64,000 nt of DNA. Origin: Lytechinus pictus. Lineage: Eukaryota. Under the pieces are notes generated by a model. The model ran no database searches and was not told where the DNA came from. It saw only the letters and a list, made by a program, of their open reading frames with translations. Below are positions 20,359 to 53,680 of this stretch, one piece after another (the stretch's first letter is position 1; every line of letters starts with the position of its first letter). Location: NCBI RefSeq assembly GCF_037042905.1, contig NC_087250.1:19470001-19534000 (forward strand). Reading direction: 5' to 3'. The position numbers and the translations under genes are program-made.

Positions 20359-21236
20359 CTCAAATTCTCTCTATCCATCTGTCTGTCTTTTTCTCTCTAT
20401 CCGTCTATATATCTATCTCTCAAATTCTATCTATCTATCTATCTATGTAACTACAGTATCTATCTATCTGTTAATCTTCTCTGTCTCTCTCATTCTTTAT
20501 CTATCTAACATCTATCTATATCTCAAATTATCTATCTCTCTCTCTCTATCTATCCATCTGTCTTTCTCTAGTGCTCTCTGTCTATCAATCTATTTATCTA
20601 TCTTCTATCTATCTATCTATCTATCTATATGTAACTGCAGTATCTATCTATCTGTTAATTTGTCGCTCTTCTCTGTCTCTCTCATTCTTTATCTATTAGA
20701 AAGTCAAAAAGGGGCCTAAGCTTTCGATCCTAGCAGAATCTTCGTCGGAGGCAAAATCTTTATCTATCTAACATCTATCTATCTCTCAAATTCTCTCTCT
20801 CTCTCTCTCCCCCTCTCTCTACCTATCTATATATCCATATTTCTGTCTTTCTCTCTCTCTACCTATCTATCTTCTATCTATCTATTTATTTATCTATCTC
20901 TCAAATTCTATCTCTATCTATCTATATGTAACTACAATCTTCTCTGTCTCTCTGATTCTTTATCTATCTAACATCTATCTCTCTCTCTCTCCCTCTATCT
21001 ATCCATCTGTCTTTCTCTAGTTCTCTCTCTCTATCAATCTATCTATCTATCTTCTATCTATCTATCTATATGCAACTGCAGTATCTATCTATCTGTTAAA
21101 TTGTCGCTCTTCTCCGTCTCTCTCATTCTTGATCTTTATCTATCTAACATATATCTATCTCTCAAATTCTCTATCTCTCTCCCCCCTCTCTATATCTATC
21201 TATCCATCTCTCTGACTTTCTCTCTCTCTCTCTACT

Positions 21237-21294
<58 letters not shown>

Positions 21295-21978
21295 CATCTG
21301 TCTTTCTCTAGTGCTCTCTGTCTATCAATCTATTTATCTATCTTCTATCTATCTATCTATATGTAACTGCAGTATCTATCTATCTGTTAATTTGTCGCTC
21401 TTCTCTGTCTCTCTCATTCTTTATCTATTAGAAAGTCAAAAAGGGGCCTAAGCTTTCGATCCTAGCAGAATCTTCGTCGGAGGCAAAATCTTTATCTATC
21501 TAACATCTATCTATCTCTCAAATTCTCTCTCTCTCTCTCTCCCCCTCTCTCTACCTATCTATATATCCATATTTCTGTCTTTCTCTCTCTCTATCTATCT
21601 ATCTTCTATCTATCTATTTATTTATCTATCTCTCAAATTCTATCTCTATCTATCTATATGTAACTACAATCTTCTCTGTCTCTCTGATTCTTTATCTATC
21701 TAACATCTATCTCTCTCTCTCTCCCTCTATCTATCCATCTGTCTTTCTCTAGTTCTCTCTCTCTATCAATCTATCTATCTATCTTCTATCTATCTATCTA
21801 TATGCAACTGCAGTATCTATCTATCTGTTAAATTGTCGCTCTTCTCCGTCTCTCATTCTTGATCTTTATCTATCTAACATATATCTATCTCTCAAATTCT
21901 CTATCTCTCTCCCCCCCCTCTCTATATCTATCTATCCATCTCTCTGACTTTCTCTCTCTCTCTCTCTCTCTCTCTACT

Positions 21979-22016
<38 letters not shown>

Positions 22017-22040
22017 CATCTATGTCTCTATCTATTTATC
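20328..22040. repeat. (TA)n/(TCTA)n/(TC)n microsatellite field with a 732-bp internal tandem duplication
   Basis: Unique 60-bp insert tagaaagtcaaaaaggggcc... at about 20697 and 21429 with duplicated flanks. Confidence 0.92.
20714..20752 (-). ncRNA. Atypical minimal hammerhead-like motif (Penelope-type); duplicate at 21446-21484
   Basis: Minus strand GCCU-CCGACGA-A-gauucu-gcu-aggauc-GAAAGCUU-AGGC; stems I and II pair, AAGCUU palindrome; core has C instead of U at position 4. Confidence 0.45.
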
Positions 22041-29498: not shown

Positions 29499-29634
29499 AT
29501 GTCCCTTCCAGAGATGGATCAATATTCAGATGTCCAGGTTTACTTCACAGCCAAGGAATGGGCAAAGATCAGCGTTTATGAGAGAACATGTATCAAGAAT
29601 GTCAAAGAAAACTATGAGATGATGATAAATCTTG
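29499..29634 (+). CDS. KRAB-A exon (first coding exon) of the KRAB-ZNF gene
   Basis: MSLPEMDQYSDVQVYFTAKEWAKISVYERTCIKNVKENYEMMINL(G). Matches the YF(T/S)xxEWxxxxxxExxxYxNVxxNYxxMxxLG ancestral KRAB pattern. Upstream acceptor cacag at 29461; donor G|gtaggt. Confidence 0.9.
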
Positions 29635-32600
29635 GTAGGTACATTCATTTTTTTTATTTGTTGAAGGATGATTCTATCCTGGTATTAAACCTGTAACTAT
29701 TTCACAGAGCAAACTTTCTTTTCAAAAAAAATTCTCCAAACTAAGGGGACTCCAACCCCAAAGAAATGAAGAAACAGAGGAGGTCTAGACTAAAGTTCGA
29801 ACAAAATTGTACAAATTGCAATATAATAAAAAATTGTTTTTAAAAGTTATTATCTCAACTTGACTGGCCTAAAAGATAGTAACTTGGAGAGACTCTAAAT
29901 GTAAATTGAATTTTTGATCAAAGTCTTTCAGGCCGCACAGACAATAGCATTTCCTCCAGTACCTTGTTTATTTGATCAACGTTCAAGCCGCTCAGAAAAA
30001 AAATCGCGTAGATAACTTGTTTCATCGATGAATTATCTGTTCAAATTTGTGAACTTTTTTGTGACAATTTGTTCTGTTTGTACACACAGGATTACAGGTA
30101 AATCAACCAAAGTTCATGCAACGTGTGCAAGTTATAAAGAAAGAGATCAAAGAGGAAAGTGATGGAGGGGAGGAGGAAATAGAGTCAAGAGGTTTGTGAA
30201 TGTCGCTGGCGTAATGTCATATGTCATGATGACATCTAACAGTATGTGTATCTGTAATGTACTATGTCAGAAACCTGTAACTATTTTACAGAGCAGCCTT
30301 TTTTTTCGAAGAAAATTCTCCAAACTAAGGGGACTCCAACCCCAAAGAAATCATGAAACAAACATCAGAGGAGGTCTAGACTAAAGTTTGAACAAAATTG
30401 AACAAATTTCAATTTAAAAAAATATATTTTTAACGTTAAAAGTTATAATCTCAACTTGACTGGCATGCATGTGATGTATAAGCTGGTAACTTGGAAAGAT
30501 GCTAAATGTAAGTTGAATTTTTGATCAAACTCTTTCAGGCTGAGCAGACAATATTATATGCTACCAGTACGTTGTTTATTTGATCTGTTTGTACACACAG
30601 GATTACAGGTAAATCAACCAAAGTTCATGCAATGTGTGCAAGTTATAAAGGAAGAGATCAAAGAGGAAAGTGATGGAGGGGAGGAGGAAAGAAAGTCAAG
30701 AGGTTTGTGAATGTTGCTGGCATAATGTCATATTTCATGATGGCTTCTAAAAGTATGTATATCAGTAATGTATTGTGTTAAATAGAAACCTGCAACTATT
30801 TCACAGAGCAAACTTTCTTTTAAAAAAAAATTCTCCAAACTAAGGGGACTCCAACCCCAAAGAAATCATGAAAAAACAGAGGTCTAGACTTAAGTTTGAA
30901 CAAAATTGTACAAATAGCTATATAATAAAAAATTGTTTTTAAAAGATATAATCTCAACTTGACTGGCCTAAAAGATAGTAACTTGGAGAGACAGTAAATG
31001 TAAATTGAATTTTTGATCAAAGTCATTCAGGCCGCACAGACAATAGCATTTCCTCCAGTACTTTGTTTATTTGATCAACGTTGTTCAAGCCGCTCAGAAA
31101 AAAAATCGCTTAGGAAACTTGTTTCATTGATTAAACATCTGTTCAAATTTGTGAATTTTTTTAGTGACAATATGTTGTTCTGTTTGTACACACAGGATTA
31201 CAGGTAAATCAACCAAAGTTCATGCCACGTGTGCAAGTTATAAAGAAAGAGATCAAAGAGGAAAGTGATGGAGGGGAGGAGGAAATAAAGTCAAGAGGTT
31301 TGTGAATGTAGCTGGCGTAATGTCATGTTTCATGATGGATTCTAAAAGTATGTGTTTCTGCAATGTATTGTGTCCAAAACCTGCAACTATTTCACAGAGC
31401 AAACTTTTTTTCCACGCAATTTCCCCAAACTAAGTGGACTCCAACCCCAAAAGAAATGAAAAAACATCAGAGGAGGTTTAGACCAAGGTTTGAACAAAAT
31501 TGTACAAATTTAAATATAAAAATATTATTTTTAACGTTAAAAGTTAGAATCTCAACTTGACTGGCATATAAGCTGGTAACTTGGAAAGACACTAAATGTA
31601 AATTGAATTTTTGATCAAAGTTATTCAGGCCGCACAGACAATATATACTCCCAGTAGGGGAGACCGGGGTTAGTTGGAACATTTTTGACAAAAATGACTG
31701 TAAAATCCAAATAGATTTTATTCAAGAAACAATCAATATATCAGCTCGAAGCATATATCTAAGGGCTTCAAATGTACCCCATAAAATTTTAAACTATTAT
31801 GGTTACTGACAAAAATCCACCTTGAACAAGACCATCGCAAACGTTCCAACTTACCTAATACGGGGTAAGTTGGAACATGGTATGGGGTAAGTTGGAACAC
31901 TGCATGGTCAATTATGAATTATACTAAAACTACTTAAAACTGTAATATTACATGGTTTTAGCCTATTTGCTTTATTTTTTCAAGTTCAAAATATTTGAAG
32001 TTTGGATTTGTTGAACTTTATGTTTCTATTATACAGCCACTCATGCAAGCAGACTGTGTAGTAGAATTCTGCATATTTGGGGGCGTTTGATTTTACATGC
32101 AATTAAGTGTACTATCAGCAATTTTATGTACTTCTGCATCAAATTTACAAGACAAAAATTAATTGTTTATATTTTTCACATTAATTAATTATGCAAATAA
32201 GCATATGAAATTTGCCCTAAATTTGTTTTTTGTATGTTTTTGCCTTTAACTCTATTTATTAACTCTAAACAGGCCAGGGGGGTTGAATCAACCCCCCCTC
32301 AACATTTTCTGCGATCATTCCGCCGCGCGAAATTTTTTGACCGCGCCACTCGCAGAGTTTATAATTTTAAGTCTCGCGCATCTTTTGAGACCATATTTAC
32401 GACGCCCGCGTACGCGGTTCCAAAATTATGCAACATTTTTGTAAGTGCATGTCAGACCAAAAATTGTTCCAAAACATTATTTTGTGTACAAAGTCAATGC
32501 AAATTGAGTTTTCTCATCTTATTCATAAAGATATGATTATTTTTACTTTAAACAGCTGAAATCAATTGATTTTAGCATAATTATGCTTCAAAAAGGTTGT

Positions 32601-35600
32601 GCAATAAATCTGGTGAAAAAAAACAAAGAAAAACAAAAGGTTGAAAAACAGAGAAATACATAAGAAATTCATAAAACAATAAAATACATAAGAAATTGAT
32701 TTCCAAACCAAAGTTTTTTTCAATTGCAATTGTTGAGAATGCTACAAAGAATATTTTTACCCAAAATTAGCATTCTAGGAGCCTTTTTTAATGAATTAGA
32801 GCAAAAAGTATGATTTATGCATAAATTAGCATAATTAATTCATGTAAAATAAAATCTCATTATTTTGGAAAATTTTACCATACTGCCTTATAGATTACAT
32901 CGCACACTACCAGCGTGCAAATTTTTGCGGCGCTCGCGCGATCGGCGGCTGAGATTCCAGGGGGGGGTTGAATCAACCCCCCCCCCCCCCCCCCCCCGGC
33001 CACAGAACAGCCAAAAAAGCCCGGCCTAGTAAGGGTTAAGCTAGTAGATAGCTAATTTTTGGTAAGTGTATCAATTTTCACATTTATAACAAATATCCAC
33101 CCAACATTGCAAAAGACATAATTATGTATTTTTTTATTTGTATTTCTTTGTTTTTTCAAACCTTTGTTTTTCCGATGAACTTTGTTGGGACTCTTTTGCG
33201 ATCATAAATAGCATAAAATAAATCTATTTGAACCAACAAAAGTAAAAAATAATACATTTATGACTTTTGGTTGAAAAACACAATTTGCATTGACCTTGTA
33301 CAGTACACGGAATAACGTTTTTGAGCAATTTTGGGTCCGACTTGCACGTACAAAATGTTGCGTAATTTCGAAAGCGGGCACACAGGCATCGTAAATTTGG
33401 TCTCAATTGATGCACAAGACTTGAAAGTAAAAAGTCAGCGAGCAGTGTAGTCAAAAAATTTCGCGCAACGGCGTAGTGACCAAACTTCTCAAGGGGGGCT
33501 CAAATTGACCCCCCCAGTTTGAAATGGGTTAATATTGCATTAGGGGCCTACGATAGGCCTTAAATGCACACTCAGACCTAACTGATGAACAAAACAAGCA
33601 TGGTATACAATACATGTTCAGAAGAGTGTGAAATACTTTATATATTTTTATTCATAATTATGTTTGGGGTAAGTTGGAACATGTTCCAACTAGCCCCTTC
33701 AATTTTGTTCAAACTAACCCCGGAGGCCCATTTGACGTTTATAAGCTTACAGCACAAAAAAGGGACTTCACCATGGCATATTAATAACCTCATTTTGTAG
33801 ATTGGTACAAGCGTCTATCATACCCCCAAACTGGCCAACTTGATCTATAAACTTCTCTGAAATAATAAAACATTTCTGAAAGAGAAAAAAATTACTCAGA
33901 AGGTCAAAAAACACAAATTCCTTTCTAATTTCACCAGGCTTGTTGCACATGTGTTGTCTGTAAAATGGTGGATGGCTGTTGATAATGACAAGAAATTGAG
34001 GGCAGTATTGCAGAAATTTATTTAAAGACGTTAAAGAAAATTACAATGTTTCAACTTACCCCGCGTTCCAACTAACCCCGGGCTCCCCTGCCTTGTTTAT
34101 TTGATCTGTTTGTACTCACAGGATTACAGGTAAATCAACCAAAGTTCATGCAACATGTGCAAGTTATAAAGAAAGAGATCAAAGAGGAAAGTGATGGAGG
34201 GGAGGAGGAAAGAAAGTCAAGAGGTTTGTGAATGTCGCTGGCGTAATGTTATATTTCATGATGATTTCTAAAAGTTTGTGTATCAGTAATGTATTATATC
34301 AGAAATATTTTAAAGATGTCCTAAATTATATCAAAGTATATAAGGCATTAACTCTTTCTACAGTGCGTCCCACAAAAAACAAAACTGTGATTTAGCAATG
34401 ATTTATCATAACTTAATCATAAATATAATAGACAAATGACCTACCAATGTAAAGGTTAGAATCTCCTCTTTCATGTGATATTACTGAGATTATTCCTCAT
34501 TCACGCATGAGTGAGCAAAGAAATTTGAAGAAAGGATAGCAAAAACTCTTTTTGCGGGGTGTATCTGAATTTCAAAGAGAAAATTGCATGCCTAAAAAGT
34601 TCAATATCTGCTCTTTTATTTGATACCTTAATCACAGAACATGGTCAAGAACTAAAAATGTTATGTTCCCTCGAAACAATGCTTGTATTTCCATAATTTC
34701 ATTAAATGTGTTTTCACCGGTTTCCCACAGAAGCTATTGCACGGTTAACAAAAGACTTAATGCATGGCTGATCGTCAACAAAGCAGAGTGTCGAGTGAGT
34801 TTTAAAGCTAGCCTGTAAAACTGCTTCATTTCATGAAATTATTGAAATTCAAGCCTTATTTCAAATAACCAGAACTTTGTTATTTCTTGACCATTTTCTG
34901 TAATTGAGGTATCAAATTAAAGAGCAGATATTGACCTTTTTAAAAATGTGGTTTTCTTTTTGAAACCCAGATACAGCCTGCCAAGTGACTTTTTGGTATC
35001 CCCTCTTCAAATTGTTTTTGCTCACTCATGCGTAAATGAGAAATAATAGAATATTTGTCTTCCATGAAAACACTGTCTTCTGGGAAGTTGGTGCACGGCG
35101 TAACTTGGCATTAGAATTTGGTCTGATAAGTTGTGCGAAACTTGAAAGAAGAATGTCATTAAATGTCGAATCTCACTGAGTTAACTTTTTGCTCTCCCAG
35201 GCATAAATGGTAGTACTAATAAATGGCATCAAACCACCTATTAAAGGTCAAGTCCACCCCAGAAAAATGTCTATTTGAATAAATAGAGAAAATCAAACTA
35301 GCATAATGCTGAAAATTTCATCAAAATTGGATGTAAATAAGAAAGTTATATTTTAAAGTTTTGCTTTTTTTCACAAAACATTGATATGCACAACTCAGTG
35401 TCATGCAAATGAGACAGCCAATGATGTCCCTCACTCACTTTTTCTTTTGTTTTTGTCTCACCTGCATAGCAGAGTGAGACTATAGGTGCCGCTTTTCCGA
35501 CGGCGGCGGCGGCGTCAACACCAAATCTTAACCTGAGGTTAAGTTTTTGAAATGACAGCATAACTTAGAAAGTATATGGACCTAGTTCATGAAACTTGGC

Positions 35601-38600
35601 CATAAGGTTAATCAAGTATTACTGAACATCCTGCCTGAGTTTCATGTCACATGACTAAGGTCAAAGGTCATTTAGGGTCAATGAACTTAGACCATGTTGG
35701 GGGAATCAACATAAAAATCTTAACCTAAGGTTAAGTTTTTGAAATGTCATCATAACTTAGAAAATATATGGACCTAGTTCATGAAACTTATACATAAGGT
35801 TAATCAAGTATCACTGAACATCCTGCATGAGTTTCACGTCACATGACCAAGGTCAAAGGTCATTTAGGGTCAATGAACTTTGGCCGAATTGGGGGTATCT
35901 GTTGAATTACCATCATAACTTTGAAAATTTATGGATCTGATTCATGAAACTTGGACATAATAGTAATCAAGTATTACTGAACATCCTGTGCAAGTTTCAG
36001 GTCACATGATCAAGGTCAAAGGTCATTTAGGGTCAATGAACTTTGGCCAAATTGGGGTATTTGTTGAATTACAGCCATAAATTTGAAAGTGTGTTGGTCT
36101 AGTTCATAAAACTTGGACATAATAGTAATCAAGTATCACTGAACATCCTGTGCGAGTTTCATGTCACATGATCAAGGTCAAAGGTCATGTAAGGTCAAAG
36201 AACTTTGGCCACGTTGGGGGTATTTTTTGAATTGCCATCATATCTCTATAAGTGTATTGGTCTAGTTCATAAAACGTGGAAATAAGAGTAACCAAGTATC
36301 ACTGAACATCTTGTGCGAGTTATAGTAGTTTTCAAAATCAGCACTGCTGCTATATTGAATCGCGTGATGCAGGTGAGACGGCCAGAGGCATTCCACTTGT
36401 TTATTGTTTGAATCATACAATATTTCATTTTTACAGATTTGACAATAAGGACCTACTTGACTGAACCATATAGTTTTAAACAATGCTACTTCCACATGTT
36501 CATGGAGGAATTAATCGTTGTTTCGCTTGACAATGAGGAGAAAATTAGAATATTACATATTTCTCACAATAAAATACAAAAGAAATAGTGAGTGGATGAC
36601 ATCATCAGTCTCCTCATTTGCATATCAACCAGGATGTGCATATAACTGTTTTGTGAATTTAAGCAAAACTTTAAAATGCCATAACTTATTTTACATCCGA
36701 TTTTATTAAAATTTTCAGTGTTGTGCGTGTTAGATTTTTCTTTATATATTCAAATCAACTTTTCGTTGGCGTGGACTTGTCCTTTAATAATGATCAGGAT
36801 GTTATTACTATCATATACTATGTACTACGTAAAGAAAAAAAATAAACTAAAAGTGCCCAGTCATGTAATTCTCGCAAGCATTGCGGGTGATTGCCCTTGC
36901 CCCCAACCCACCTGCAAAAAGGTTTTGAGCATGTTAAAATAATTTCAACCTGCCAATCAGACTTGCATGTGCTTCTGCTGGCAACTACATGTGAGGTGCA
37001 TGCTAGAGACTGTCAATGTAGGCAACCTGCAGGTAGCAAAAATAGTTACCTTCAAGATCCTTCTTTTTTTTTCTTTTACTGAAAAGTTCTTGAGATATCT
37101 TCCAACCTTGCCTCTGCTTTTGAAAATAGGATTAGATGTCCGTTCATCAGAGCTTTTGCAGCCTCAGCAAAGTGAAAAGAAACCGATCCTCAAGGACTTG
37201 GGAAATGGTGATCTCCTTGAATCAACAGACTTTGATAAATCCGTCCCATCACACACCAATCCAACATCATCAGGTGATCAGGGTAGTCAATCAGGTGATC
37301 TCAACACCCAGTCATGTGATCAGAAGAAAAAACAAATAGAGGGAGCTCAAGGAACTGACCAAACCCCCAAGCAGTCCCAGGGAACTTCATTGGAAGACAA
37401 TGGACAAGGAACTGGACAGGGTGGAAATCTTTCAGGTAAAGATGATTTTAAATGAAATGGAGCTGTATGATAGGAAGGACTTTGAATACTGGATGGAGTG
37501 TGTAATTATCCTTGCTGTGCCGGTCCGCCGTGAAGTATTTATATACAATTCGACCTCGTCTTATCCGGCCTCCCTTTATCTGGATCTCTATATTTTCCGG
37601 ACGCACAGTTGCAGAGATTTTTTTTATTTTTGTTTTAATCTAGTACGTGGGGAAATGGGATTTCAATCTAAAATTTCTACGGAAACTCACTTTGATTACA
37701 CACTTTTTCCAATATAGTCTATCTCTCCAATCTCATTATTTTTTATGTAAATATCTTGCCCAAATCACAGAAAGAATACAAGCATTTTATTATTTCATCA
37801 CATGCTCTTTTTATCATTAAAAAAAAAAGCCTGTCTTACTAGCACGCCCAGGCCCACAGAAATTTCTGTCCATGCCCCTGACTAGTCTTTCATTAGGATG
37901 CGGACAGCGCCATCTATCGTGTTTGAGCATACAGTTAGTATAACAATGGCTGACTTTGCTACGATGGGATGCCCAATAGGATGATCCAATTTTTCACGTT
38001 AGCCTATTAGTTTTATCAAGTCATTTTCTTTTTTTCACGATATGCTTGATGTATTCCTCAATCATTTCAGCAGGTAAATTATCCAAGAGTTTTGGCAACC
38101 AATTGAAAACATTTCCATAAAAAAAAGCCTATTATTTGTACTGACAGCATTGAAATACTGTCTGTAGGTCCACTGCAATAGATTACGTGTAGCTACCATT
38201 TGTGAGGCAGCTGCGCGTATTTGATTTTGGGTCTCCCAGATCCGGATAAATCCCTTATCCGGATCGGTGCTGGTCCCAATGTGTCCGGATAAGAGAGGTC
38301 TGACTGTACATTTATTGAGGTAAATTTTGCTAAAAACTTTCGATAGGGTTATTATACTAACGTGTATGTAGGGGCGGAGCGGATACAGGATTTTCCTAAG
38401 GGGGCGGGGGTCTTTTTTTTCAGAAAATTTTGACAAATAAAATGTTTTCACAACCAAATTGAGGTAATTTCTTCCATGAACAATGTGACCCCCCCCCAAA
38501 AAAAAAAAAGAGGGTTTCACTGCCAAATTGAGGTCATTTGTTCCAGGAAAATTTTGACAAGCAAAAAAAAAAGGGTTTTCACCACCAAATCAATGTAATT

Positions 38601-40144
38601 TTGTCCAAAGAAAAAATTGACAAGCAAAAAAATTGAAGGGTTCACACTGCATGAAATATTCCACTAACAAAAATATTTTTGTGCCTCTCAAACATTAATT
38701 CCAATTAGCAATGGTGACAGTACAGAACCTTGAGGTACACCTACCTTCACCTCAAACTCGTCTGGCAGCTCAGACACTGTACTTAGTCTTCTCTTGGTCA
38801 ATATCCTTAATTTGCTCTTGAGGCCCCCCTAACACAAATCTCTGGAATTTATTTTAGACTTCCACATTACTTTTCAGTTTCACCAACTCCAATATTTATA
38901 ACCCTAGATATATCTTTGTTTCTTTAACATAAGGTTCTGGGATCTGCAGATGCAAGTACTGTGGATCTCCCTATGCTATTCCTCTCATCTTAGCAAGGCA
39001 TCTCAAGTACAAACATGGTCATAATGGTGGTATTATGGTACCAGATTCATCCCATTCACGTTTTCTGCAGATCATCAGTGGAGAAATACAAAACCCTCTT
39101 GATAAACCCAAAGAGCCTTCACATGATGAAACAGGAAGTGCAATGAAGACTAAATATGTAATGTATCTTAGGAAATCGAGTGAAAAGCAAAATCAGAATT
39201 CTTACTTCTCCACACAATGTGAGAAGGTAATTAATCATCAAGTTGGGGATGCCGTAGCAGGTGAAAGAATTCATACAGGTGATCAGCGCTATGTTTGTTA
39301 TTATTGTGACAAAGCATTCTATGATGCAAGTGCTCTCAAAGCCCATGCACAAATCCATTATGAAGTGCATGTTTGTGATTATTGTGATAAGACTTTCCAT
39401 TTTGCTTCCGCTCTTAAAGCACATAGATGTAAAAGAATTCATACAGGTGAGAAACCCTTTCATACAGGTGAGAAACCCTATGTATGTGATCATTGTGGTA
39501 AGGCATTTATTCTACCAGGTCTTCTCCGCGCACATAAACGATACCATACTAGTGATAAGGCCTTTGTTTGTGATTATTGTAATAAGGCCTTCTATAGTTC
39601 CTCTTCTCTCAAAGTACATAAACGGATCCATACAGGTGAGAAGCCCTATGTATGTGATCAGTGTGGTAAGGCATTTAATGGGAAAGGTAATCTTGCAAAG
39701 CATAAACGAATCCATACAGGTGAGAAACCCTATGTATGTGATCGATGTGGTAGGGCATTTAATGAAGAAACTACTTTCAGTAGACATAAACAAGCTCATG
39801 CAAATGAGAAGCGCTTTGTATGTGTTCACTGCGGTAAGGCATTTAATCAAATGCTAAATCTAAGTATACATGAACGAATCCATACAGGAGAGAGAAATTA
39901 TCTCTGTGATCAATGTGGTAAGGCATTTTATAGAGCTGATCATCTCAAAGCACATAAAAGAATTCATGATTCTGACAAACCCTATGTATGTATTTATTGT
40001 GGTAAGTCATTTAATTATGCTTGTGGTCTAAAATCGCATAAACGAATCCATACCGGTGAAAAGCCCTATGAATGTGATTTTTGTGATGAGGCATTTCGTC
40101 GAAGTAGTTATCTCAAAAAACACATTACAAGTAAGCACAAGTGA
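29499..40144 (+). CDS. Ancestral-KRAB (PRDM9/SSX-type) C2H2 zinc-finger protein, spliced gene model (584 aa with one KRAB-B-like exon, 686 aa with all four)
   Basis: Exons 29499-29634, 30090-30191, 30601-30702, 31196-31297, 34122-34223, 37130-37435, 38934-40144. All introns are GT..AG and phase 1, and the frame stays open from ATG 29499 to TGA 40144. N-terminus DVQVYFTAKEWAKISVYERTCIKNVKENYEMMINLG-LQVNQPKFM resembles the PRDM9 KRAB motif; the C-terminus has TGEKP-linked C2H2 fingers. Confidence 0.85.
30090..30191 (+). CDS. KRAB-B-like exon copy 1 (GLQVNQPKFMQRVQVIKKEIKEESDGGEEEIESR)
   Basis: Acceptor tacacacag|, donor |gtttgt, 102 bp, phase 1-1. GLxxxxPxFM matches the second KRAB exon of PRDM9. 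Confidence 0.85.
30601..30702 (+). CDS. KRAB-B-like exon copy 2 (GLQVNQPKFMQCVQVIKEEIKEESDGGEEERKSR)
   Basis: Tandem duplicate with intact AG/GT sites and open frame; inclusion in mRNA is not demonstrable from DNA. Confidence 0.65.
31196..31297 (+). CDS. KRAB-B-like exon copy 3 (GLQVNQPKFMPRVQVIKKEIKEESDGGEEEIKSR)
   Basis: Tandem duplicate with intact AG/GT sites and open frame. Confidence 0.65.
31657..34088. mobile_element. Non-autonomous pogo/Tc1-mariner-like DNA transposon with nested MITEs
   Basis: TIR ggggagaccggggttagttggaac / gttccaactaaccccgggctcccc; TA target (TA left, TG right); empty site ccagtaccttgtttatttgatc at about 29956 in the paralogous repeat unit; internal ggggtaagttggaaca repeats. 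Confidence 0.88.
32263..33035. mobile_element. piggyBac-like MITE
   Basis: TTAA|ctctaaacaggcc ... ggcctagtaaggg|TTAA with ggggttgaatcaacccc palindromes at both ends; followed by a second related end at 33040-33528. Confidence 0.8.
34122..34223 (+). CDS. KRAB-B-like exon copy 4 (GLQVNQPKFMQHVQVIKKEIKEESDGGEEERKSR)
   Basis: Tandem duplicate displaced by a 2.4-kb transposon insertion just upstream; acceptor ctcacag| and donor |gtttgt intact. Confidence 0.65.
34360..35050. mobile_element. Truncated Tc1/mariner-like foldback MITE
   Basis: TA|cagtgcgtccca left end; about 34490-34660 is inverted at about 34875-35047; right TIR not found. Confidence 0.55.
35245..36783. mobile_element. Kolobok-like MITE hosting a Helentron-like insertion
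   Basis: TTAA|aggtcaagtccac...gtggacttgtcct|TTAA; uninterrupted relative at about 47925-48502. Confidence 0.85.
35451..36400 (+). mobile_element. Non-autonomous Helentron-like (HINE/DINE-1/Tsp-type) element with central tandem repeats
   Basis: Subterminal IR gtctcacctgc / gcaggtgagac, (GGC)n microsatellite, ~163-193-bp tandem units (ggtcaaaggtcatttagggtcaatgaac); inserted in a T-run with no TSD (empty site at about 48133). Confidence 0.8.
37130..37435 (+). CDS. Low-complexity Q/S/G/D linker exon of the KRAB-ZNF gene
   Basis: Within ORF 36967-37455; acceptor aaatag|, donor tcag|gtaaag; 306 bp, phase 1-1 (GLDVRSSELLQPQQ...GGNLSG). Confidence 0.8.
37546..38306. mobile_element. Tigger/pogo-like MITE
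   Basis: TA|caattcgacctcgtcttatccgg ... ccggataagagaggtctgactg|TA. Confidence 0.65.
38934..40144 (+). CDS. Terminal exon: one isolated C2H2 finger, spacer, then 10 tandem C2H2 fingers
   Basis: Pyrimidine tract plus acceptor cataag| at 38933 extends ORF 39035-40144 upstream in frame (GSGICRCKYCGSPYAIPLILARHLKYKH). Ten CxxC-x12-HxxxH units with HTGEKPY-type linkers (finger 2 has a 2-residue insertion; finger 10 is HxxxxH). Confidence 0.93.
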
Positions 40145-41485: not shown

Positions 41486-44208
41486 GATGTTAGAATAATT
41501 GTTTGTTTTAAATTCGTATTTAAAAAAAAGTTTGTAAAAAAATCATGTAAAAATTAAAAAAAATAGAAAAACAATTATACAAATGCTGTTAAAATAACTA
41601 AAAAATAAAATGCAATGAAAGAAAATATGTCAGTGGCAACACGAAAATCATAAACAACATTCTTAGTATGAAAAATGATTAATATAATTAAATATGATTT
41701 TTGGTTATCGGATGGAAAATCTATAAAAGACAACATTATTATTTTTTTTATCACCATTGGAAAGAATCTTAACACCAGGTCAAGAAAGTGATTCTTATTT
41801 ACGTCATTTAGGGAAACCAATTACAGGATCTGTTTCTTTCCCCTCATTTCTGCCAAAATACTGTTTTGTCATCTAAAAATGGAAAATCCCCATGATATGA
41901 CTGTATTGATAATAGTAGGCCTATATTAAAACAGTGATTAATGTATTATGTAAACCTTCATGCAATACATATAATTTTTGTTTTTAGATGCCTCATGAAC
42001 TTTAATAGTGCAAATTACTTAGAATTTTTAAATCTTGGATGATATCCTATATCTCTTAAGAAATTATCTAAATTCAATTTAATCACACATTTGCTTTTTC
42101 TATTTTTTTTCTATTTTATTTGTACATATCTTTTATGTCACTGTATTTTCTCCCACTTTAATTTGCTAAAATTAGGGTCAATCTTTTAAGTTTCTAATTT
42201 ACTTCTTTTGACCCTCCACATTTTTATAATGTATTTTGTATTATCTATGGTTATGCTCTGTGTATACGTTATATTTGCTATGAATTGATGTGCTTATAGT
42301 GTAAATGTTTCTTTTTTCAAACATTTTTATAGGAATGTGAAAAATAAACTGAACTTTAATTTTGTGATAAGACATATCTCACATTCAATAATATATCAAT
42401 ACGTAATTGATGTCAGTTTGCAGAGTTTATCCTACCTTCATCTTGAGAGTTAAGTCATCAATATAGTTACTCCTGCGCTTTTGTTATCTGTCATCAAGTT
42501 ATCATCATCTTCAATAAATATATATAATATGAACTTGACATGTGTTGCTTTGTATTTATTGAAGTTGGTTGAAAGTTAAAGTGCAATCGATCCAGCAGCA
42601 TCAATTCAACTCTTTAAATTTTTCTGTATGATTTCTATGTTTGCGTTTTTACCTCTCCCATTCCAAAAAATTGTCGACACTACACTACACTACTTGAGAT
42701 TTAATCCTTATAATCCTTATAAAACATTTTTTTGCGATAAATCACATTTTTTAACACATCAGTCAATGACTTTACTTTCAAGTCTCATGCAACATTTGAG
42801 ATCAAAATCGCTAGCCCTAGCAGTTCTGAAATTAAGCAAGGTACATTTTGTAAGTGAACGCAGACCCAAAATTGCTCAAAAACATGAATTTGTGTACACA
42901 TCCGATACAAATTAGCAAAAATGTATAAATATATCATTATTTTTTGTTTCACTCATTAAAATCAATTAATTTAATCTTGTGTGTAGTCAAAATGAAGTCC
43001 CCGACAATTTCCATTGAAAAAACAAGAATTAAAAACAGAAATACACAAGAAAAAAACAATAAGAATACACAAGTTTTCATCAGGTTCCTATAAAGAGTCT
43101 CTGAACCAAAAATTTGCATTTAAGGGCATTATTTAGTTAGATAGAGCATACTAATGATTTTACGCATAAATAAATAAGCAGTTTTGATTAATTGGATTTT
43201 TGAAGAGTTTGATCTTATTCTATAATATTAGGCTAGGGACTACTAGTTTTGTAGATTATGCCATGGCATGGGTAACGTACGTGCCAATTTTTGTCGCGTT
43301 TGCATGATCGATAGCCGAGATCATACTCAGCCCCCCCCCCCCCATTCAGTCTCCTAATTAGGCTAAAGATATTTGTTCGACCCAATTAACCCATTCAAAT
43401 TTTATATTGTTGATTGACATAAGTATATGAATATAATCGAAAATCTAACACTGATTCTAGAAATGGTAACTACTGAACTTCATTTCCCCAAATTGGGAAG
43501 ATATATCAATGAATTTGGAACTATTTTTTGACTGGCGGAAGAATTAGGGCCGTTTTACTGTTTCAGCTCTTAAATTTGATTCTATCATAGTTATCTTCAT
43601 AAATGGCGATTTATTATTAAAATGAGCTGGCTACGATACTCTTCTCTGGTCAGATATGGAATGTCAGATATATATCCTATCCAACAGTAGTAGGCATTCG
43701 ACCCTCTAATTTCACGTTTATTTTTTTATTTTTCAGAAGTGCCATTTTAACACACAAGTCTATGGATATGGGGAATGTTTTACGCGCGTGACACCTTATG
43801 ATAATTTTTTTCTTGGACAAATTGCTTTCCATACATTTCATGTTACCGTATGCTCGATCGATATATTCAACTCAGCCTTTTTGACAGTCTAATACTACTT
43901 TACAGTTATGAGATTTGGGGCTTCTGAAAAGCTTCATTTGAAATTCTGTAAGATAGCTCCTCGAGCTGTACTTATCAACCGACCCCTGCACTTACATGGT
44001 CTATGAACTTGGGCGCTTCGATCCCATAAAAAATCACATTAAGTGCAGAATGGTTAATTTCTGCCTAAACTCATACAAAAACGGTGAGAATAATATTGCT
44101 CTTTATCTTGTATATTATGGTCTCATTTTGCGGATGGAAAGCACTCAAGGCTACTGTGAGAGGAATTATTATAGATTTTGGTTTTGATGGTATGGTCATC
44201 ATGTGACC

Positions 44209-45027
44209 CAGTGGCGTAGACAGGTTCGTACACGTGGGGGGGATGACTGGGCTGCCAACGCTAGTGAGGGCGCGAAGTGCCCGAGCGAGGGAGCGAAGCG
44301 ACCGAGCGGGGGGAGGGTGTGGGAGGGGGGTGTGCCCCCTCCCACGGTAGGGAGCTTTTGCAATTTTGAACTTGAAATCGTGCAATCTGATGCATACTTA
44401 ATGAGGTAAAATAACACACACAAGCGCGCACGCACACACACACATACTCACACACACACACACACACACACGGGTGCGCGCATCACACACATACTACGCC
44501 TTGAATGGACAGACATGCATCGACAAGATCTACACACCGTGGCATACGAATACAGAATGGACTGACACATATTATTGCATATTGAACCACACTACGTATT
44601 TATTTATCTCTGTGAATTTTGCTGTTACACCTCTTCAGAAAAAAAAAAATGTCAACTGTGTACACGCAGGTATAGTCTTTGTTGTCTTGATATGGGTATG
44701 TGGTTATGAATGAAAACAGCCTCTGTGGCCATTTTTTAATAGAACACATAAACAACAAACAAATAACAATATGTCTGTTCATTATAAAGCATCATGAATA
44801 CGTACATACTATGCTTTTTTTTACCTCAAAGAAACAGGCATAGTATCCATAGATGGATATTGGCTGGCGGCTCATTAACATACAGATACAAAAAACATAA
44901 ACAGTATCACTATGATCCATGGAGTAACAATACTGCTTTGTAAGTTTGTGAAGAAATCGGAACCATTACGGCATTGCATCGTTTCAAATTAGGGCATTAT
45001 TTACTTCTATTTGATCTCAGTCTTATA

Positions 45028-45067
<40 letters not shown>

Positions 45068-47889
45068 AAATAAAAAATAATACTAATACAAATAATAATG
45101 CTAATACTAATAGGTTCCTTTTATCTCGCATTTCAAGACAGGGTAAATTCACACTGCGCTTGACATGAAACAAACTTCTTTAAACATTTCAAACTTATGT
45201 CTTCATGCATCAATCAACATACTTTAAATGAATACAAAACAAAGTGCATTTTAAATAAAACAAAACTAAATAAATAGTTAACAATACAGAAAAGATGTAG
45301 CTGCTGCAAGCTTAACAACAAACTAATGTATACCAGTCAGTCCTGATATCAGTATTAGTGTAACAATAGTCATATAGTGGGAGCATGAAGTTGAACAATT
45401 CATGATTATACATAATTATATATGTTTGTTTGAATAATACTTGTTATAAAGATAGTAGTATGGTACTCTCTGTCACGAATTATTATGTATACTGTTGTAT
45501 CACATTCATTTTCTATTCTGTTTTAGATTGCGCTGATGCATTTTGCACACAATGTATAATGCCTATAACACGAGTGGGCCAGACCACACATGTATTTCAA
45601 TAAAAACCGACTTGAGAAAATAACGTGTATATAAATATATAAATAAATAAATAAATAAATGCATATAATGTATATATATATGTATAAATATCATATACCT
45701 GTAATATAATCTGATATAAACTAATAACCCAGGACCAAAATCCAGTTAAAACCAATTAGGGCAAAACCAATTGAAACCAGTTGGCCAACTGGTTTCAATA
45801 GGGAAATTGGAACAACTGGTTCCAATTGAAAACCAGTTGCCAATTGGTTCCAGTTAAAAACCAATTGAAAACCAGTTGCCAATTGGTTCCAGTTAAAACC
45901 AATTGGGCAACTGGAACCAGTTGGCAATTGTTGTCAATTGGTTCCAGTTGTTCCAATTTCCCTATTAAAACCAATTGAATCCAATTGGAGGCAACTGGTT
46001 TCAATTGGTTCCAGTTGAAACCAATTGGAGGCAACTGGTTTCAACTGGAACCAGTTGAAACCAATTGGTTTCCAACTGGATCCAATTGGAACTTCCAGTT
46101 GGAACGAACTTAATTAGTTACAAATTAATTAGCATTTGCAGTAACTATTTCTCATGCCAACACAGAAGCAGCGTTATGTCTATTAATACCAATGTAAAGG
46201 GCATTGATAAAATACAGACTTTCATGTATATATATTTATATGGAAGATCTTCAAATATATGTACTTTTATTTGATGTAATTTGGTAACAGTTAGTGGTGT
46301 ACTAATTATCCTTTAATCTGTTTTAATTATAATCTATAACATTTATGAACATGGTTTTCACTGCTAAGTATTCTAAATACTAATCTTTAAAAAGTGTGGT
46401 ACTTGAAATTGTAAAGAATTAAATAGATACATTGTTAATGATGATTAATCTCATAAAACATTAATCTGTGCACACTGGCAAATAATATGCAAATTAACTG
46501 GTTTCAATTGGATCCAGTTGGGTAACTGGAAAATTTCCAATTGGAAACCAATTGGAAATAATTTCCAGTTACCCAACTGGTTCCAATTAGAATTCATTTC
46601 CAGTTACCCATCTTTCCAGTTAGAAGTCATCTCAGTTACCCAATTGGTACCAGTTAGGATTTCCAGTTACACAACTGAATGGTTCAAGTTAGGATTTCCA
46701 GTTACCAACTGGTTCCAGTTAGAAATCATTTCCAGTTGGAAGTCATTTCCAGTTACCCAACTGGTTCCAGTTAGGATTTCCAGTTGCCCAACTGGTTCCA
46801 GTTAGAAATCATTTCCAATTGGAAGTCATTTCCAGTTACCCAAATGGTTTCAGTTAGGATTTCCAGTTGCCCAACTGGTTCCAGTTGGGATTTCCAGTTA
46901 CTCAACTGGTTCCAGTAAGAAATCATTTCCAATTGGAAGTCATTTCCAGTTACCCAACTGGTTCCAGTTAGGATTTCCAGTTGCCCAACTGGTTCCAGTT
47001 GGGATTTCCAGTTACTCAACTGGTTCCAGTTAGAAATCATTTCCAGTTGGAAGTCATTTCCAGTTACCCAACTGGTTCCAGTTAGGATTTCCAGTTGCCC
47101 AACTGGTTCCAGTTAGAAATCATTTCCAATTGGAAGTCATTTCCAGTTACCCAACTGGTTCCAGTTAGGATTTCCAGTTGCCCAACTGGTTCCAGTTGGG
47201 ATTTCCAGTTACTCAACTGGTTCCAGTAAGAAATCATTTCCAATTGGAAGTCATTTCCAGTAACCCAACTGGTTCCAGTTAGGATTTCCAGTTGCCCAAC
47301 TGGTTCCAGTTGGGATTTCCAGTTACTCAACTGGTTCCAGTTAGAAATCATTCCCAATTGGAAGTCATTTCCAGTTACCCAACTGGTTCCAGTTAGGATT
47401 TCCAGTTGCCCAACTGGTTTCAATTGGTTTCAACTGGAAATTGTTAAATTCCAGTTAAAACCAATTGAAACCAGTTGAAACCAATTGAAACCAATTGAAA
47501 CCAGTTGGAAATCCAACTGGTTTCAATTGGATTTTGGTCCTGGGAAATAAATAAATAAATATAATACATATCATATATGAGAAGGTATTGCTAGTACTCG
47601 GTTCGTGCCTGAAAAGTAGTCTCGATGAAAAGAAAAAAGTGAATGCGGCTAATAACAATAAACACAATTACAATAATGATGAGGATTATTATTATCATCA
47701 TCATAATTATTATTAATATTATAATTGTTATCATTATTATTATTACTATTATTATCATCATTATGACTTATTAAGTAACCAAATATAATTCCCCAAAACC
47801 TGGGGGGGATGATTGTACATGCCATCCCCCCCACCTTGTGAGGTGGGGGGGATGCATCCCCCTCATCCCCCCCGTTGTCTACGCCCCTG
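44209..47889. mobile_element. hAT-like non-autonomous element, copy 1 (with nested insertion)
   Basis: TIR cagtggcgtagaca / tgtctacgcccctg; 8-bp TSD atgtgacc (44201-44208, 47890-47897). Confidence 0.93.
45728..47544. mobile_element. EnSpm/CACTA(CMC)-like non-autonomous element, 1817 bp, made largely of ccagtt/aactgg satellite
   Basis: TIR cccaggaccaaaatcca / tggattttggtcctggg; 2-bp TSD (AA) deduced from the empty site at about 50896; related end at 22600-22858. Confidence 0.88.
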
Positions 47890-48874: not shown

Positions 48875-49377
48875 TAACTTGAGTAGATTTAGACTAGGTA
48901 TAATACTCATCTTCCAGTAGTAGTAGGAAGATTCAATAGCACATGCTATGATGAATTCCATGCTGTCTTTGAATGCAGCTTCGTAAAGAATATAGGTCCA
49001 ACTTATATTGCCAAGATAATATTGTAACAAACCAAATACTTTCAGAATGGAAAAGCTAGCTGTTTACTGTAACTATTAGAAAACTTTTAATCAGGTTCGC
49101 TAAGTTTGCTTATACTATATTATGGTGGAATTTAAGTCCTCTAATTTAAACCATCGATAACTCCCCCTCCCCGCCCCCCATATGCTCCTTAAAGGTATAA
49201 TTTTTTTTTTTAAGAACACGATTAACATAGTTACATAAAGGAAACAACTCCTTGTAATTAGGATTTTAAACATTCACATTCAGTTTTTATATTCTGTACC
49301 CGTTTAGGAAAAAATGCTTTTATCTCAGTAAATGGCATTCCCCATCTTTGCCAGCTGATACATTTATAAATCACTGC

Positions 49378-50196
49378 CAGTGGCGTAGACAGGTTCGTAC
49401 ACGTGGGGGGGATGACTGGGCTGCCAACGCTAGTGAGGGCGCGAAGTGCCCGAGCGAGGGAGCGAAGCGACCGAGCGGGGGGAGGGTGTGGGAGGGGGGT
49501 GTGCCCCCTCCCACGGTAGGGAGCTTTTGCAATTTTGAACTTGAAATCGTGCAATCTGATGCATACTTAATGAGGTAAAATAACACACACAAGCGCGCAC
49601 GCACACACACACATACTCACACACACACACACACACACACGGGTGCGCGCATCACACACATACTACGCCTTGAATGGACAGACATGCATCGACAAGATCT
49701 ACACACCGTGGCATACGAATACAGAATGGACTGACACATATTATTGCATATTGAACCACACTACGTATTTATTTATCTCTGTGAATTTTGCTGTTACACC
49801 TCTTCAGAAAAAAAAAAATGTCAACTGTGTACACGCAGGTATAGTCTTTGTTGTCTTGATATGGGTATGTGGTTATGAATGAAAACAGCCTCTGTGGCCA
49901 TTTTTTAATAGAACACATAAACAACAAACAAATAACAATATGTCTGTTCATTATAAAGCATCATGAATACGTACATACTATGCTTTTTTTTACCTCAAAG
50001 AAACAGGCATAGTATCCATAGATGGATATTGGCTGGCGGCTCATTAACATACAGATACAAAAAACATAAACAGTATCACTATGATCCATGGAGTAACAAT
50101 ACTGCTTTGTAAGTTTGTGAAGAAATCGGAACCATTACGGCATTGCATCGTTTCAAATTAGGGCATTATTTACTTCTATTTGATCTCAGTCTTATA

Positions 50197-50236
<40 letters not shown>

Positions 50237-51239
50237 AAATAAAAAATAATACTAATACAAATAATAATGCTAATACTAATAGGTTCCTTTTATCTCGCAT
50301 TTCAAGACAGGGTAAATTCACACTGCGCTTGACATGAAACAAACTTCTTTAAACATTTCAAACTTATGTCTTCATGCATCAATCAACATACTTTAAATGA
50401 ATACAAAACAAAGTGCATTTTAAATAAAACAAAACTAAATAAATAGTTAACAATACAGAAAAGATGTAGCTGCTGCAAGCTTAACAACAAACTAATGTAT
50501 ACCAGTCAGTCCTGATATCAGTATTAGTGTAACAATAGTCATATAGTGGGAGCATGAAGTTGAACAATTCATGATTATACATAATTATATATGTTTGTTT
50601 GAATAATACTTGTTATAAAGATAGTAGTATGGTACTCTCTGTCACGAATTATTATGTATACTGTTGTATCACATTCATTTTCTATTCTGTTTTAGATTGC
50701 GCTGATGCATTTTGCACACAATGTATAATGCCTATAACACGAGTGGGCCAGACCACACATGTATTTCAATAAAAACCGACTTGAGAAAATAACGTGTATA
50801 TAAATATATAAATAAATAAATAAATAAATGCATATAATGTATATATATATGTATAAATATCATATACCTGTAATATAATCTGATATAAACTAATAAATAA
50901 ATAAATAAATATAATACATATCATATATGAGAAGGTATTGCTAGTACTCGGTTCGTGCCTGAAAAGTAGTCTCGATGAAAAGAAAAAAGTGAATGCGGCT
51001 AATAACAATAAACACAATTACAATAATGATGAGGATTATTATTATCATCATCATAATTATTATTAATATTATAATTGTTATCATTATTATTATTACTATT
51101 ATTATCATCATTATGACTTATTAAGTAACCAAATATAATTCCCCAAAACCTGGGGGGGATGATTGTACATGCCATCCCCCCCACCTTGTGAGGTGGGGGG
51201 GATGCATCCCCCTCATCCCCCCCGTTGTCTACGCCCCTG
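49378..51239. mobile_element. hAT-like non-autonomous element, copy 2 (1862 bp)
   Basis: Same TIRs as copy 1, different 8-bp TSD atcactgc (49370-49377, 51240-51247); body appears identical to copy 1. Confidence 0.93.
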
Positions 51240-52484: not shown

Positions 52485-53680
52485 ATGGTGGGCCCCAAGT
52501 CTGCGCACCTAACAATTTGAGTTAAGATTTAACATGAATTTCTTCTTTTTTCACAAAATCTTTTGGTTAATAGTGTTTCTTATATTTATTATTAAGAGTA
52601 AGTGTAGGCCTACCAAATTTCTCATTAAAAAATGAAAGAAAATATAAGATTTTCTTGAAAAAACCTTTGGGCAGTCATTTTCAGATCGAAAAAAAAATGG
52701 TACCCCATGTCTGCGCACTCATTCACTTTGCACACGATTCAGGGATTTTGTTGTTGTTGTTGTTCGTTTTGGGCCTGTTTCACGCCCTAGTAGTCTCCTC
52801 GGTAGACACTTACTGTTGAGAACTCAAAGGTAGAAAAACTGAGCCTAGGTAATTGTTTTGTTGGCTAGTTTGGCTAGATGTTAGCGCTGGTGGATGAGAC
52901 AAATGCTACCACCGATGCTCTAATTATAGATTGCATTTGCTTGGTCATTGCAGGGTTGAAGCCCAGGAGGGTGACCACCGAGATCTCTCTGAGATGGTAT
53001 GGAGTGTTAGTTTTGCTGTATCCTATCTCTATGGTCTGTATCATCTTCAGTCTACTGGACTCATAGAGTGAACAGTGGAGAAGGACATGCTCTATAGTTT
53101 CCCTGTCTCTGTTGCAACTGCAGTTAGGTGAAGGGTGGTTGTGAGGGAAAATTCTGTGCATATTGTCATTGAGTTTGGTATGTCCTGTGAGCATCCTCAT
53201 CAGCTTCACTTCTGTGGATCTTGGAAGAGAGCTGTGTGCATTCTTCCTGGCAACTGTGGGCTGGAGTTGGTATGTCCATCTTCCTTTTGTAGATCTGTCC
53301 CATCGTCGTTGCCACATCTTCTCAGTGTTCTTACGGATAATCTTGGCACTTTCCTTGTGCAGAGTAATTTCAGAAGCTAATGATGATGAGCTTGCAGCTT
53401 CCAAAGCAGCATCCTTGGCTAGTTGGTCAGCAAGTTCATTTCCCATGATATTTGCATGCCCAGCGATTTTGATGACAAAGGCTGCATTTTGAGGCCGTCA
53501 CATGAAAGGCCCTGAATTCATTATTTTTCCACCACTTTGAGTCGGATTTTTAAATGAATACCTGTCTATGTATTGCATGTGTAAAGTTCATGCTCGTTGC
53601 GTATTTACTTTTACTAGAATCGCGCAGATACCCGGGTGCGCAGACTTGGGAGACCGCGCAGACTTGGGGGAACTGACCAT
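52485..53680. mobile_element. MITE (ccaagtctgcgc / gcgcagacttgg ends) interrupted by a LINE
   Basis: Imperfect terminal inverted repeats; right half homologous to 8980-9372. Confidence 0.55.
52751..53464 (-). mobile_element. 5'-truncated RNase H-bearing LINE (I/Nimb/Ingi group)
   Basis: ORF 52874-53446: IAGHANIMGNELADQLAK (RNase H C-terminus), WQRRW, RMLTGH, CSC-x6-TIEHVLLHC zinc finger; (CAA)n tail; TSD gattttg at 52744-52750 and 53465-53471. Confidence 0.9.

What the first reader, a model, noticed from the sequence alone, without database searches (positions are those of the whole stretch)
29499..40144. PRDM9-like KRAB-zinc-finger gene with no PR/SET: an invertebrate parallel to tetrapod KZFPs, set in transposon-dense DNA
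Seen: KRAB of the PRDM9/SSX type split over two exons, and a last exon starting with a lone finger (CKYC...ARHLKYKH), then a spacer and a finger array. Established: this is the PRDM9 layout (KRAB, SSXRD, zinc knuckle, PR/SET, early finger, array), and KRAB-only ZNF expansions are mainly known from tetrapods, where they target transposons. I find no SSXRD, zinc-knuckle or PR/SET exon between 34224 and 38933; those introns are mostly accounted for by MITEs. The fingers differ from each other, unlike the homogenised PRDM9 minisatellite. Inference: a PRDM9 derivative that lost its methyltransferase and may belong to an independently evolved sequence-specific repressor family.
Basis: partly seen in the sequence, partly recalled or inferred. 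Interest (0 to 1): 0.75.

Follow-up and report, generated by a model that had tools for sequence, protein, structure and literature searches.

The report
Sea-urchin KRAB zinc-finger family from PRDM9
This intact, spliced sea-urchin gene is one of 25 copies of the recombination gene PRDM9 that kept its KRAB-type head and zinc-finger tail but lost the enzyme part, so an invertebrate has separately reached the layout of the vertebrate KRAB zinc-finger genes, and the protein likely works as a sequence-specific silencer.

Summary
The gene is KRAB-A, one to four tandem KRAB-B exons, linker, early finger and ten-finger array (584-686 aa, open frame). RNA reads span every junction and join linker directly to the finger exon. 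Database names place the genome in Lytechinus pictus. It holds 28 KRAB-A exons: 3 in complete PRDM9 genes and 25 in genes lacking the SSXRD-position, knuckle and PR/SET exons. The 25, plus 3 L. variegatus proteins, form one clade (100/99) inside sea-urchin PRDM9. KRAB is conserved, DNA-contact residues change fast, and all 25 carry Cys where PRDM9 has Arg at KRAB position 27; the MLE motif needed for TRIM28 binding is absent. Origin and architecture are shown. Repression and transposon targeting are inferred only. Nine literature searches listed no paper on this family; this scan had already noted it on other DNA of the same genome. New variant of a known kind.

The parts
29499..29634 (+). Coding exon 1: ancestral-type KRAB-A (phase-1 donor)
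   Evidence: Pfam KRAB 22.7 bits; 64% identity to the genome's PRDM9 exon 1; junction to 30090 in 7/11/21 reads
30090..30191 (+). Ancestral KRAB-B exon, copy 1 (102 nt, phase 1-1, PxxFM motif)
   Evidence: spliced from exon 1
30601..30702 (+). Ancestral KRAB-B exon, copy 2
   Evidence: copy-to-copy junction reads cannot be assigned to a given pair
31196..31297 (+). Ancestral KRAB-B exon, copy 3
31657..34088 (.). Non-coding terminal-inverted-repeat element with a nested second element (arms 32257-32439 / 33352-33534)
   Evidence: ends read from the sequence; inverted arms; 0.80 repeat cover
34122..34223 (+). Ancestral KRAB-B exon, copy 4
   Evidence: junction to 37130 in 11/16/16 reads, GT..AG
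34356..35047 (.). MITE-like insertion
   Evidence: inverted arms 34517-34708 / 34827-35018; matches in up to 3 other loci
35238..36818 (.). MITE-like insertion holding a 163-192-nt tandem-repeat element (about 35450-36400)
   Evidence: read depth 1300-2100 from repeat copies
37130..37435 (+).
   Evidence: 52% identity over 77 aa, E 7e-22; junction to 38934 in 11/44/27 reads
38934..40144 (+). Last exon: PRDM9-type early finger (from 38951), spacer, ten-finger C2H2 array (39296-40141), stop
   Evidence: 65% identity over 54 aa to the start of the PRDM9 last exon; stranded RNA cover

Best explanation
The gene is an intact, spliced member of a 25-copy sea-urchin family that descends from PRDM9 and lacks its three SSXRD, knuckle and PR/SET exons, and its protein likely binds DNA through the finger array and likely silences the bound site through partners of its KRAB head. 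Shown: exon-by-exon homology to the genome's own PRDM9, in-frame absence of a phase-1 to phase-1 block of 633 coding nt, one clade, tandem spread on C6, C17 and C21, conserved KRAB, fast-changing contact residues. Inferred: one deletion in one PRDM9 copy; DNA binding; recruitment of a repressive partner, either the PRDM9-KRAB partners EHMT2/CDYL known from mouse, now unopposed by an H3K4 writer, or the urchin's TIF1 protein; targets among repeats. Confidence is about 0.95 for origin and architecture and about 0.45 for silencing as the function.
For: Three complete 8-exon PRDM9 genes with open frames of 797, 921 and 952 aa give a same-genome reference. 25 of the other 25 KRAB loci lack the three exons and 25 of 25 have the PRDM9 early finger and an array of 6-42 fingers downstream on the same strand. 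RNA joins the linker exon straight to the finger exon (82 reads in 3 runs). Tree of shared exons only: 28 SET-less rows form one side of a 100/99 branch inside echinoid PRDM9, in 100% of 200 bootstrap trees. KRAB-A (36 codons) among the 7 local copies: dN 0, dS 0.08; among 8 subfamily representatives dN/dS 0.42. Contact positions -1, 2, 3, 6: 15 amino-acid changes in 36 codons against 11 in 153 others among 5 paralogues, and 15 of 40 against 10 of 130 versus the L. variegatus orthologue P0005 (p 2e-5). KRAB position 27 is Arg in 3 of 3 local PRDM9 and in 34 of 34 PR-bearing proteins that the pattern could read (16 of 50 unread), Cys in 25 of 25 SET-less genes; position 7 Ala to Asp and position 20 Thr to Ile/Phe in 25 of 25. 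Positions 20 and 27 are two of those that had to turn hydrophobic to make human PRDM9 KRAB repress (PMC8835667, passages). Mouse PRDM9 KRAB binds EHMT2 and CDYL (PMC5341731, passages). A TIF1-type gene is present at C9:1.62-1.64 Mb.
Against: No binding site, target or partner was tested. The MLE insertion is absent, and reverting it abolished repression in the human assay (PMC8835667). Position 9 stays Gln, and Ile at 20 also occurs in an S. purpuratus PRDM9 (P0015), so that change is not diagnostic. Human PRDM9 KRAB neither silences nor binds TRIM28, and in SSX most repression lies in SSXRD, which is lost here (same paper). KRAB constraint between subfamilies (0.42) is weaker than among the PRDM9 copies (0.02). 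The excess of replacement over silent change at contact sites rests on small counts without a tree (p about 0.02). Reads can come from any of the 7 close copies, and the tissue is unknown. Repeat cover of the introns is not shown to be unusual.
Confidence: 0.45

Rival explanations
1. Catalytically dead PRDM9 competitors: in meiotic cells they would occupy sites or KRAB partners and so block or shift PRDM9-directed recombination hotspots.
For: KRAB and the early finger are kept under constraint; three intact PRDM9 genes with homogenised arrays coexist; two CW-finger exons, as expected of ZCWPW-type readers, are present though not identified further; some SET-less arrays are as homogenised as PRDM9's (0.93, contact share of diversity 0.48).
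Against: All 25 changed the PRDM9-invariant Arg27 and lost net positive charge in KRAB-B (mean +2.3 to -0.4), which suggests changed partners. This gene's array matches the L. variegatus array finger by finger, unlike a turning-over minisatellite.
Confidence: 0.2
2. Lineage-specific transcription factors for ordinary genes (activating or neutral adaptors), with no link to transposons.
For: No MLE motif; mouse PRDM9 KRAB also binds CXXC1 of the COMPASS H3K4 complex (PMC5688218, abstract); one member gained a PHD finger in both Lytechinus species; steady exon depth of about 10-55 reads in 6% of each of 3 runs.
Against: Tandem amplification with change concentrated at contact residues is the pattern of vertebrate KRAB zinc-finger genes, and predicted sea-urchin finger motifs were tested against transposon libraries in PMC10547256 (passages; this family not singled out).
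Confidence: 0.22
3. Near-neutral birth-and-death debris of a duplication-prone PRDM9 region; most copies have no selected function.
For: Partial copies without a detected KRAB-A exist at C10:28.93 and C6:13.83 Mb; truncated PRDM9 copies are common in cnidarians (bioRxiv 10.64898/2026.09.07.749791, passages); full frames were not checked for all 25 genes; two C21 pairs may be uncollapsed haplotypes.
Against: Last-exon frames of 314-1395 codons stay open in 25 of 25; KRAB-A and early finger have dN 0 with dS 0.08-0.12 among 7 copies whose last introns are 83-98% alike; orthologues persist in L. variegatus; accurate splicing.
Confidence: 0.1

Closest known systems
PRDM9 / Meisetz (three complete copies in this genome at C6:8.19, 15.07 and 20.17 Mb; RefSeq-named P0019, P0020, P0023)
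   Same: KRAB-A exon, KRAB-B exon, linker exon, early finger and array, same order and intron phases.
   Different: No SSXRD-position, knuckle or PR/SET exons, so no methyltransferase; small exon 2b not detected; KRAB-B repeated; Arg27Cys; array not homogenised in this gene.
Coelacanth ancestral-KRAB zinc-finger genes (PMC8835667)
   Same: Ancestral KRAB-A without the MLE insertion, joined to C2H2 fingers, no SSXRD, no SET, multiplied by duplication.
   Different: Separate origin inside echinoid PRDM9; multi-exon where the coelacanth genes are mostly single-exon; 25 rather than over 200 copies; keeps the PRDM9 early finger; no PKPDFM motif; no TRIM28 partner known. That paper says this group had been found only in coelacanth.
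Tetrapod KRAB zinc-finger proteins (KZFPs)
   Same: KRAB head exons plus one finger exon, clustered duplicates, fast change at contact residues.
   Different: No MLE motif, no modern KRAB-B, different ancestry; repression through TRIM28 and transposon binding untested.
Truncated PRDM9 paralogues of cnidarians and vertebrates (bioRxiv 10.64898/2026.09.07.749791; PMC5519329)
   Same: Arise by loss of whole exons from duplicated PRDM9.
   Different: Those keep SET and lose ends (the cnidarian survey defines them by SET); here the middle is lost and both ends kept.
SSX proteins
   Same: Ancestral KRAB without SET.
   Different: SSX keeps SSXRD and has no finger array; the reverse holds here.

Membership tests
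Full-length PRDM9 | Ancestral KRAB-A and KRAB-B at the N-terminus | tested here: met
Full-length PRDM9 | SSXRD exon | tested here: not met
   No match to the genome's own SSXRD-position exon. Pfam SSXRD is blind here: it misses the true PRDM9 exon too, so that exon is named by position and recalled motif likeness.
Full-length PRDM9 | Zinc knuckle and PR/SET domain | tested here: not met
   RNA skips from linker to finger exon
Full-length PRDM9 | Homogenised finger array with diversity focused on contact residues | tested here: not met
   identity 0.75 and contact share 0.34 against 0.89-0.92 and 0.51-0.59
Full-length PRDM9 | Meiosis-specific expression | not testable with these tools
   tissue of the RNA runs is not given
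Tetrapod KZFP | KRAB plus C-terminal C2H2 array, no SET | tested here: met
Tetrapod KZFP | Modern KRAB-A with MLE at positions 32-34 | tested here: not met
   one-residue gap against ZNF93; same length in 25 of 25
Tetrapod KZFP | Descent from the lobe-finned-fish/tetrapod KZFP ancestor | tested here: not met
   nested in echinoid PRDM9; vertebrate KZFPs were not in the tree, so this rests on the nesting and on shared urchin-specific exons
Tetrapod KZFP | Clustered duplication and fast change at contact residues | tested here: met
Tetrapod KZFP | TRIM28 binding and repression | not tested
   A TIF1-type gene was found; its coiled coil is split over two exons and no whole protein record was at hand, so no complex was modelled
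Tetrapod KZFP | Binding to transposons | not testable with these tools
   no motif predictor or repeat library
Coelacanth aKRAB-ZNF | Ancestral KRAB-A plus fingers, neither SSXRD nor SET | tested here: met
Coelacanth aKRAB-ZNF | Mostly single-exon; PKPDFM in KRAB-B | tested here: not met
   4-7 coding exons; only PxxFM
SSX | KRAB plus SSXRD, no finger array | tested here: not met

The most novel reading that the evidence does not exclude
Lytechinus sea urchins re-ran the birth of the KRAB zinc-finger system: one PRDM9 copy lost its writer, its KRAB shifted at a position that matters for the vertebrate repressor switch (Arg27 to Cys), it began recruiting the urchin's TIF1 or G9a machinery, and the family now expands in an arms race with transposons, with one member already adding a PHD reader.
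Probability: 0.3. Interest if true: 0.88.

Novelty: new variant of a known kind. Interest (0 to 1): 0.66.

Why it matters
The step from PRDM9 to KRAB zinc-finger repressors is assumed to have happened once, over 400 million years ago, and cannot be watched in vertebrates (PMC4592553, PMC6745500). Here parent and derivatives sit in one genome, still alignable exon by exon, in a laboratory urchin with genetics and cell lines (listed). That makes testable whether losing SET is enough to turn a hotspot writer into a silencer, whether the co-repressor link comes first or later, and whether the route is repeatable. The family is hidden from routine annotation: full-length members score under the Pfam KRAB cut-off (14-18 bits against 20.4) and carry generic 'zinc finger protein-like' names.

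Tried and rejected
Pfam SSXRD over the genome: 0 matches, uninformative because it also misses the true PRDM9 exon; BLAST of that exon against a marsupial PRDM9 gave E 2.2. Pfam KRAB over the genome found only the 7 local copies; protein queries found 28. The PR locus at C4:11.78 Mb was fetched as a possible fourth PRDM9 and dropped: no KRAB, linker or early finger; it looks like PRDM1/Blimp1 (recalled). A first exon table had frame slips in three query exons and was replaced. Assembly artefact for the 7 local copies rejected: last introns 83-98% alike. AU test on whether the loss came before or after the split from Strongylocentrotus: p 0.29, unresolved. No RNA holder was on record among indexed runs; raw-read runs of the same species label were laid instead. 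TRIM66 B-box profile did not find TIF1; a short recalled motif did. No structure or complex job was run. Searches in other species found SET-less KRAB plus early finger plus array only in the two Lytechinus species; S. purpuratus gave four early-finger proteins with SET and one short isoform without (P0024, keeps the SSXRD-position exon, groups with its PRDM9). These read gene models only, so absence elsewhere is weak.

Full report
Observation. All internal exons are phase 1-1, so one to four KRAB-B copies give open frames of 584-686 aa. About 6% of each of three stranded RNA runs was laid on the gene. Junction reads per run: exon 1 to KRAB-B 7/11/21, KRAB-B to KRAB-B 6/19/2, linker to last exon 11/44/27, KRAB-B to linker 11/16/16, all from one strand. 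The three runs are one study, the tissue is not given, and reads may come from any of seven close copies. RefSeq models of paralogues show the same chain (P0002-P0005).

Organism and family. Database names give Lytechinus pictus, with a contig length equal to C6. Two different KRAB queries return the same 28 exons (28 of 28 and 28 of 30 candidates); counts are lower bounds. Three lie upstream of PR exons and are complete 8-exon PRDM9 genes. Their exons, used as queries on 18.5-50 kb downstream of each other KRAB exon, show that 25 of 25 lack the SSXRD-position, knuckle/PR-N and PR-C exons (best stray hit E 0.6) and 25 of 25 reach a PRDM9-type early finger and an array of 6-42 fingers. The linker was found in 24 of 25. 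Seven copies lie at C6:19.2-19.5 Mb, others at C6:8.3-8.5 and 13.8-14.4 Mb, C17 and C21. Two C21 pairs may be haplotypes, so 23-25 genes. Whole frames were not checked for every gene.

Origin. The missing block begins and ends in phase 1 (633 coding nt), so a single deletion keeps the frame. A tree of 173 columns from the shared exons only, 40 rows, puts 25 L. pictus and 3 L. variegatus SET-less rows on one 100/99 branch inside sea-urchin PRDM9, with Diadema, a sea star and two hemichordates outside (outgroup rows are one-third filled; two unnamed rows and the C4 locus were left out; no vertebrate KZFP was included). Whether the loss predates the split from Strongylocentrotus is unresolved (p-AU 0.29). 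Protein searches found this architecture only in the two Lytechinus species.

Selection. KRAB-A has dN 0 and dS 0.08 among the seven local copies, 0.42 as dN/dS among eight subfamily representatives and 0.02 among the PRDM9 copies. Contact residues change about five times as often as other finger positions, both among five paralogues (15 of 36 against 11 of 153) and against the L. variegatus orthologue (15 of 40 against 10 of 130). An excess over silent change is suggestive only (p about 0.02 on minimal counts). This gene's array is not homogenised (0.75; contact share 0.34, statistic as in PMC5519329), but SET-less members range up to 0.93 and 0.48.

KRAB head. Numbered by the ZNF93 alignment, the head lacks the MLE insertion. 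All 25 have Cys at 27, Asp at 7 and Ile/Phe at 20 where the local PRDM9s have Arg, Ala and Thr; Arg27 held in 34 of 34 readable PR-bearing proteins, 16 of 50 unread. PMC8835667 found that hydrophobic residues at 9, 20 and 27 plus MLE convert human PRDM9 KRAB into a TRIM28-binding repressor, and that MLE is essential. The urchin family has thus moved part of the way at most, and binding to a human-type TRIM28 is unlikely. The genome has a TIF1-type gene with RING, two B-boxes, coiled coil, PHD and bromodomain pieces (pieces read by eye); only one was found, by a single motif search. Mouse PRDM9 KRAB binds both repressive (EHMT2, CDYL) and activating (CXXC1) partners (PMC5341731, PMC5688218).

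Mechanism. Most likely the array binds DNA and the head recruits a silencing partner, with no H3K4/K36 writer to oppose it (0.45). Rivals: ordinary lineage-specific factor (0.22), meiotic competitor of PRDM9 (0.2), neutral debris (0.1). Nothing here shows a target or a partner.

What is known. [quoted passage not shown] Abstract only: PMC5688218. Listing only: PMC10672805 on Drosophila Bonus. Nine searches listed no paper on this family; (Lytechinus pictus + KRAB + zinc finger + genome) returned 0. Subscription papers such as Birtle and Ponting 2006 and Imbeault 2017 were not seen. Earlier notes of this scan report the same family on other DNA of this genome; I consulted them after my own tests and they are not independent support.

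Verdict. Real, intact and expressed; not a PRDM9 and not a member of the vertebrate KZFP family, but a separately arisen gene family with the same layout. New variant of a known kind, interest 0.66.

Noticed in passing
G000:C17:0.83-0.88 Mb (L084, L085, L094-L096): One SET-less member carries a PHD-finger exon between linker and finger exon, in both L. pictus (P0025) and L. variegatus (P0013), and is followed by four tandem last exons each opening with the early finger: an enzyme lost and a likely histone reader gained. Rests on gene models and DNA homology, not on reads.
   Followed up: partly
P0007-P0009; L008, L009 (C21): Gene models fuse a THAP domain in front of the KRAB of C21 members; part of one leader lies about 1.2 kb upstream in the genome. 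May be real fusions or model artefacts.
   Followed up: partly
G000:C8:7.4-39.1 Mb: About 40 of the 60 PR-domain matches lie in clusters on C8 with no KRAB exon found on that contig: a separate large PRDM expansion, partly in mirrored pairs that may be haplotypes.
   Followed up: no
G000:C10:28.93 Mb and C6:13.83 Mb (L111-L114): Partial family copies with KRAB-B, linker and a damaged early finger but no KRAB-A in the stretch fetched.
   Followed up: partly
window 35450-36400: Interspersed element built of 163-192-nt tandem units; read depth 1300-2100, almost all one strand, far above the gene's exons, most likely from copies elsewhere.
   Followed up: no
window 29640-31650: The KRAB-B exon was multiplied as 510-595-nt units with flanking intron; copy number varies from 1 to 4 among the seven local genes.
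   Followed up: yes
window 55750-57215 (+): Probable small multi-exon gene for a Pro/Gly/Tyr/Gln-rich protein ending in Ser- and Lys/His-rich runs; no Pfam match for the first frame.
   Followed up: partly
window 44071-45660 and 49258-50850: Near-identical local duplication of about 1.6 kb (same ORFs and microsatellites).
   Followed up: no
window 52874-53497 (-): LINE-type fragment with RNase H and zf-RVT matches below cut-off.
   Followed up: partly
window 5350-7915, 20360-22040, 45810-47510: Tandem-repeat blocks: 74/265/338-nt units, a TATC-type microsatellite, and 31/83/114-nt units.
   Followed up: no
G000:C6:8.19, 15.07, 20.17 Mb: Three intact full-length PRDM9 genes in one echinoderm genome, each with a homogenised array.
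   Followed up: yes
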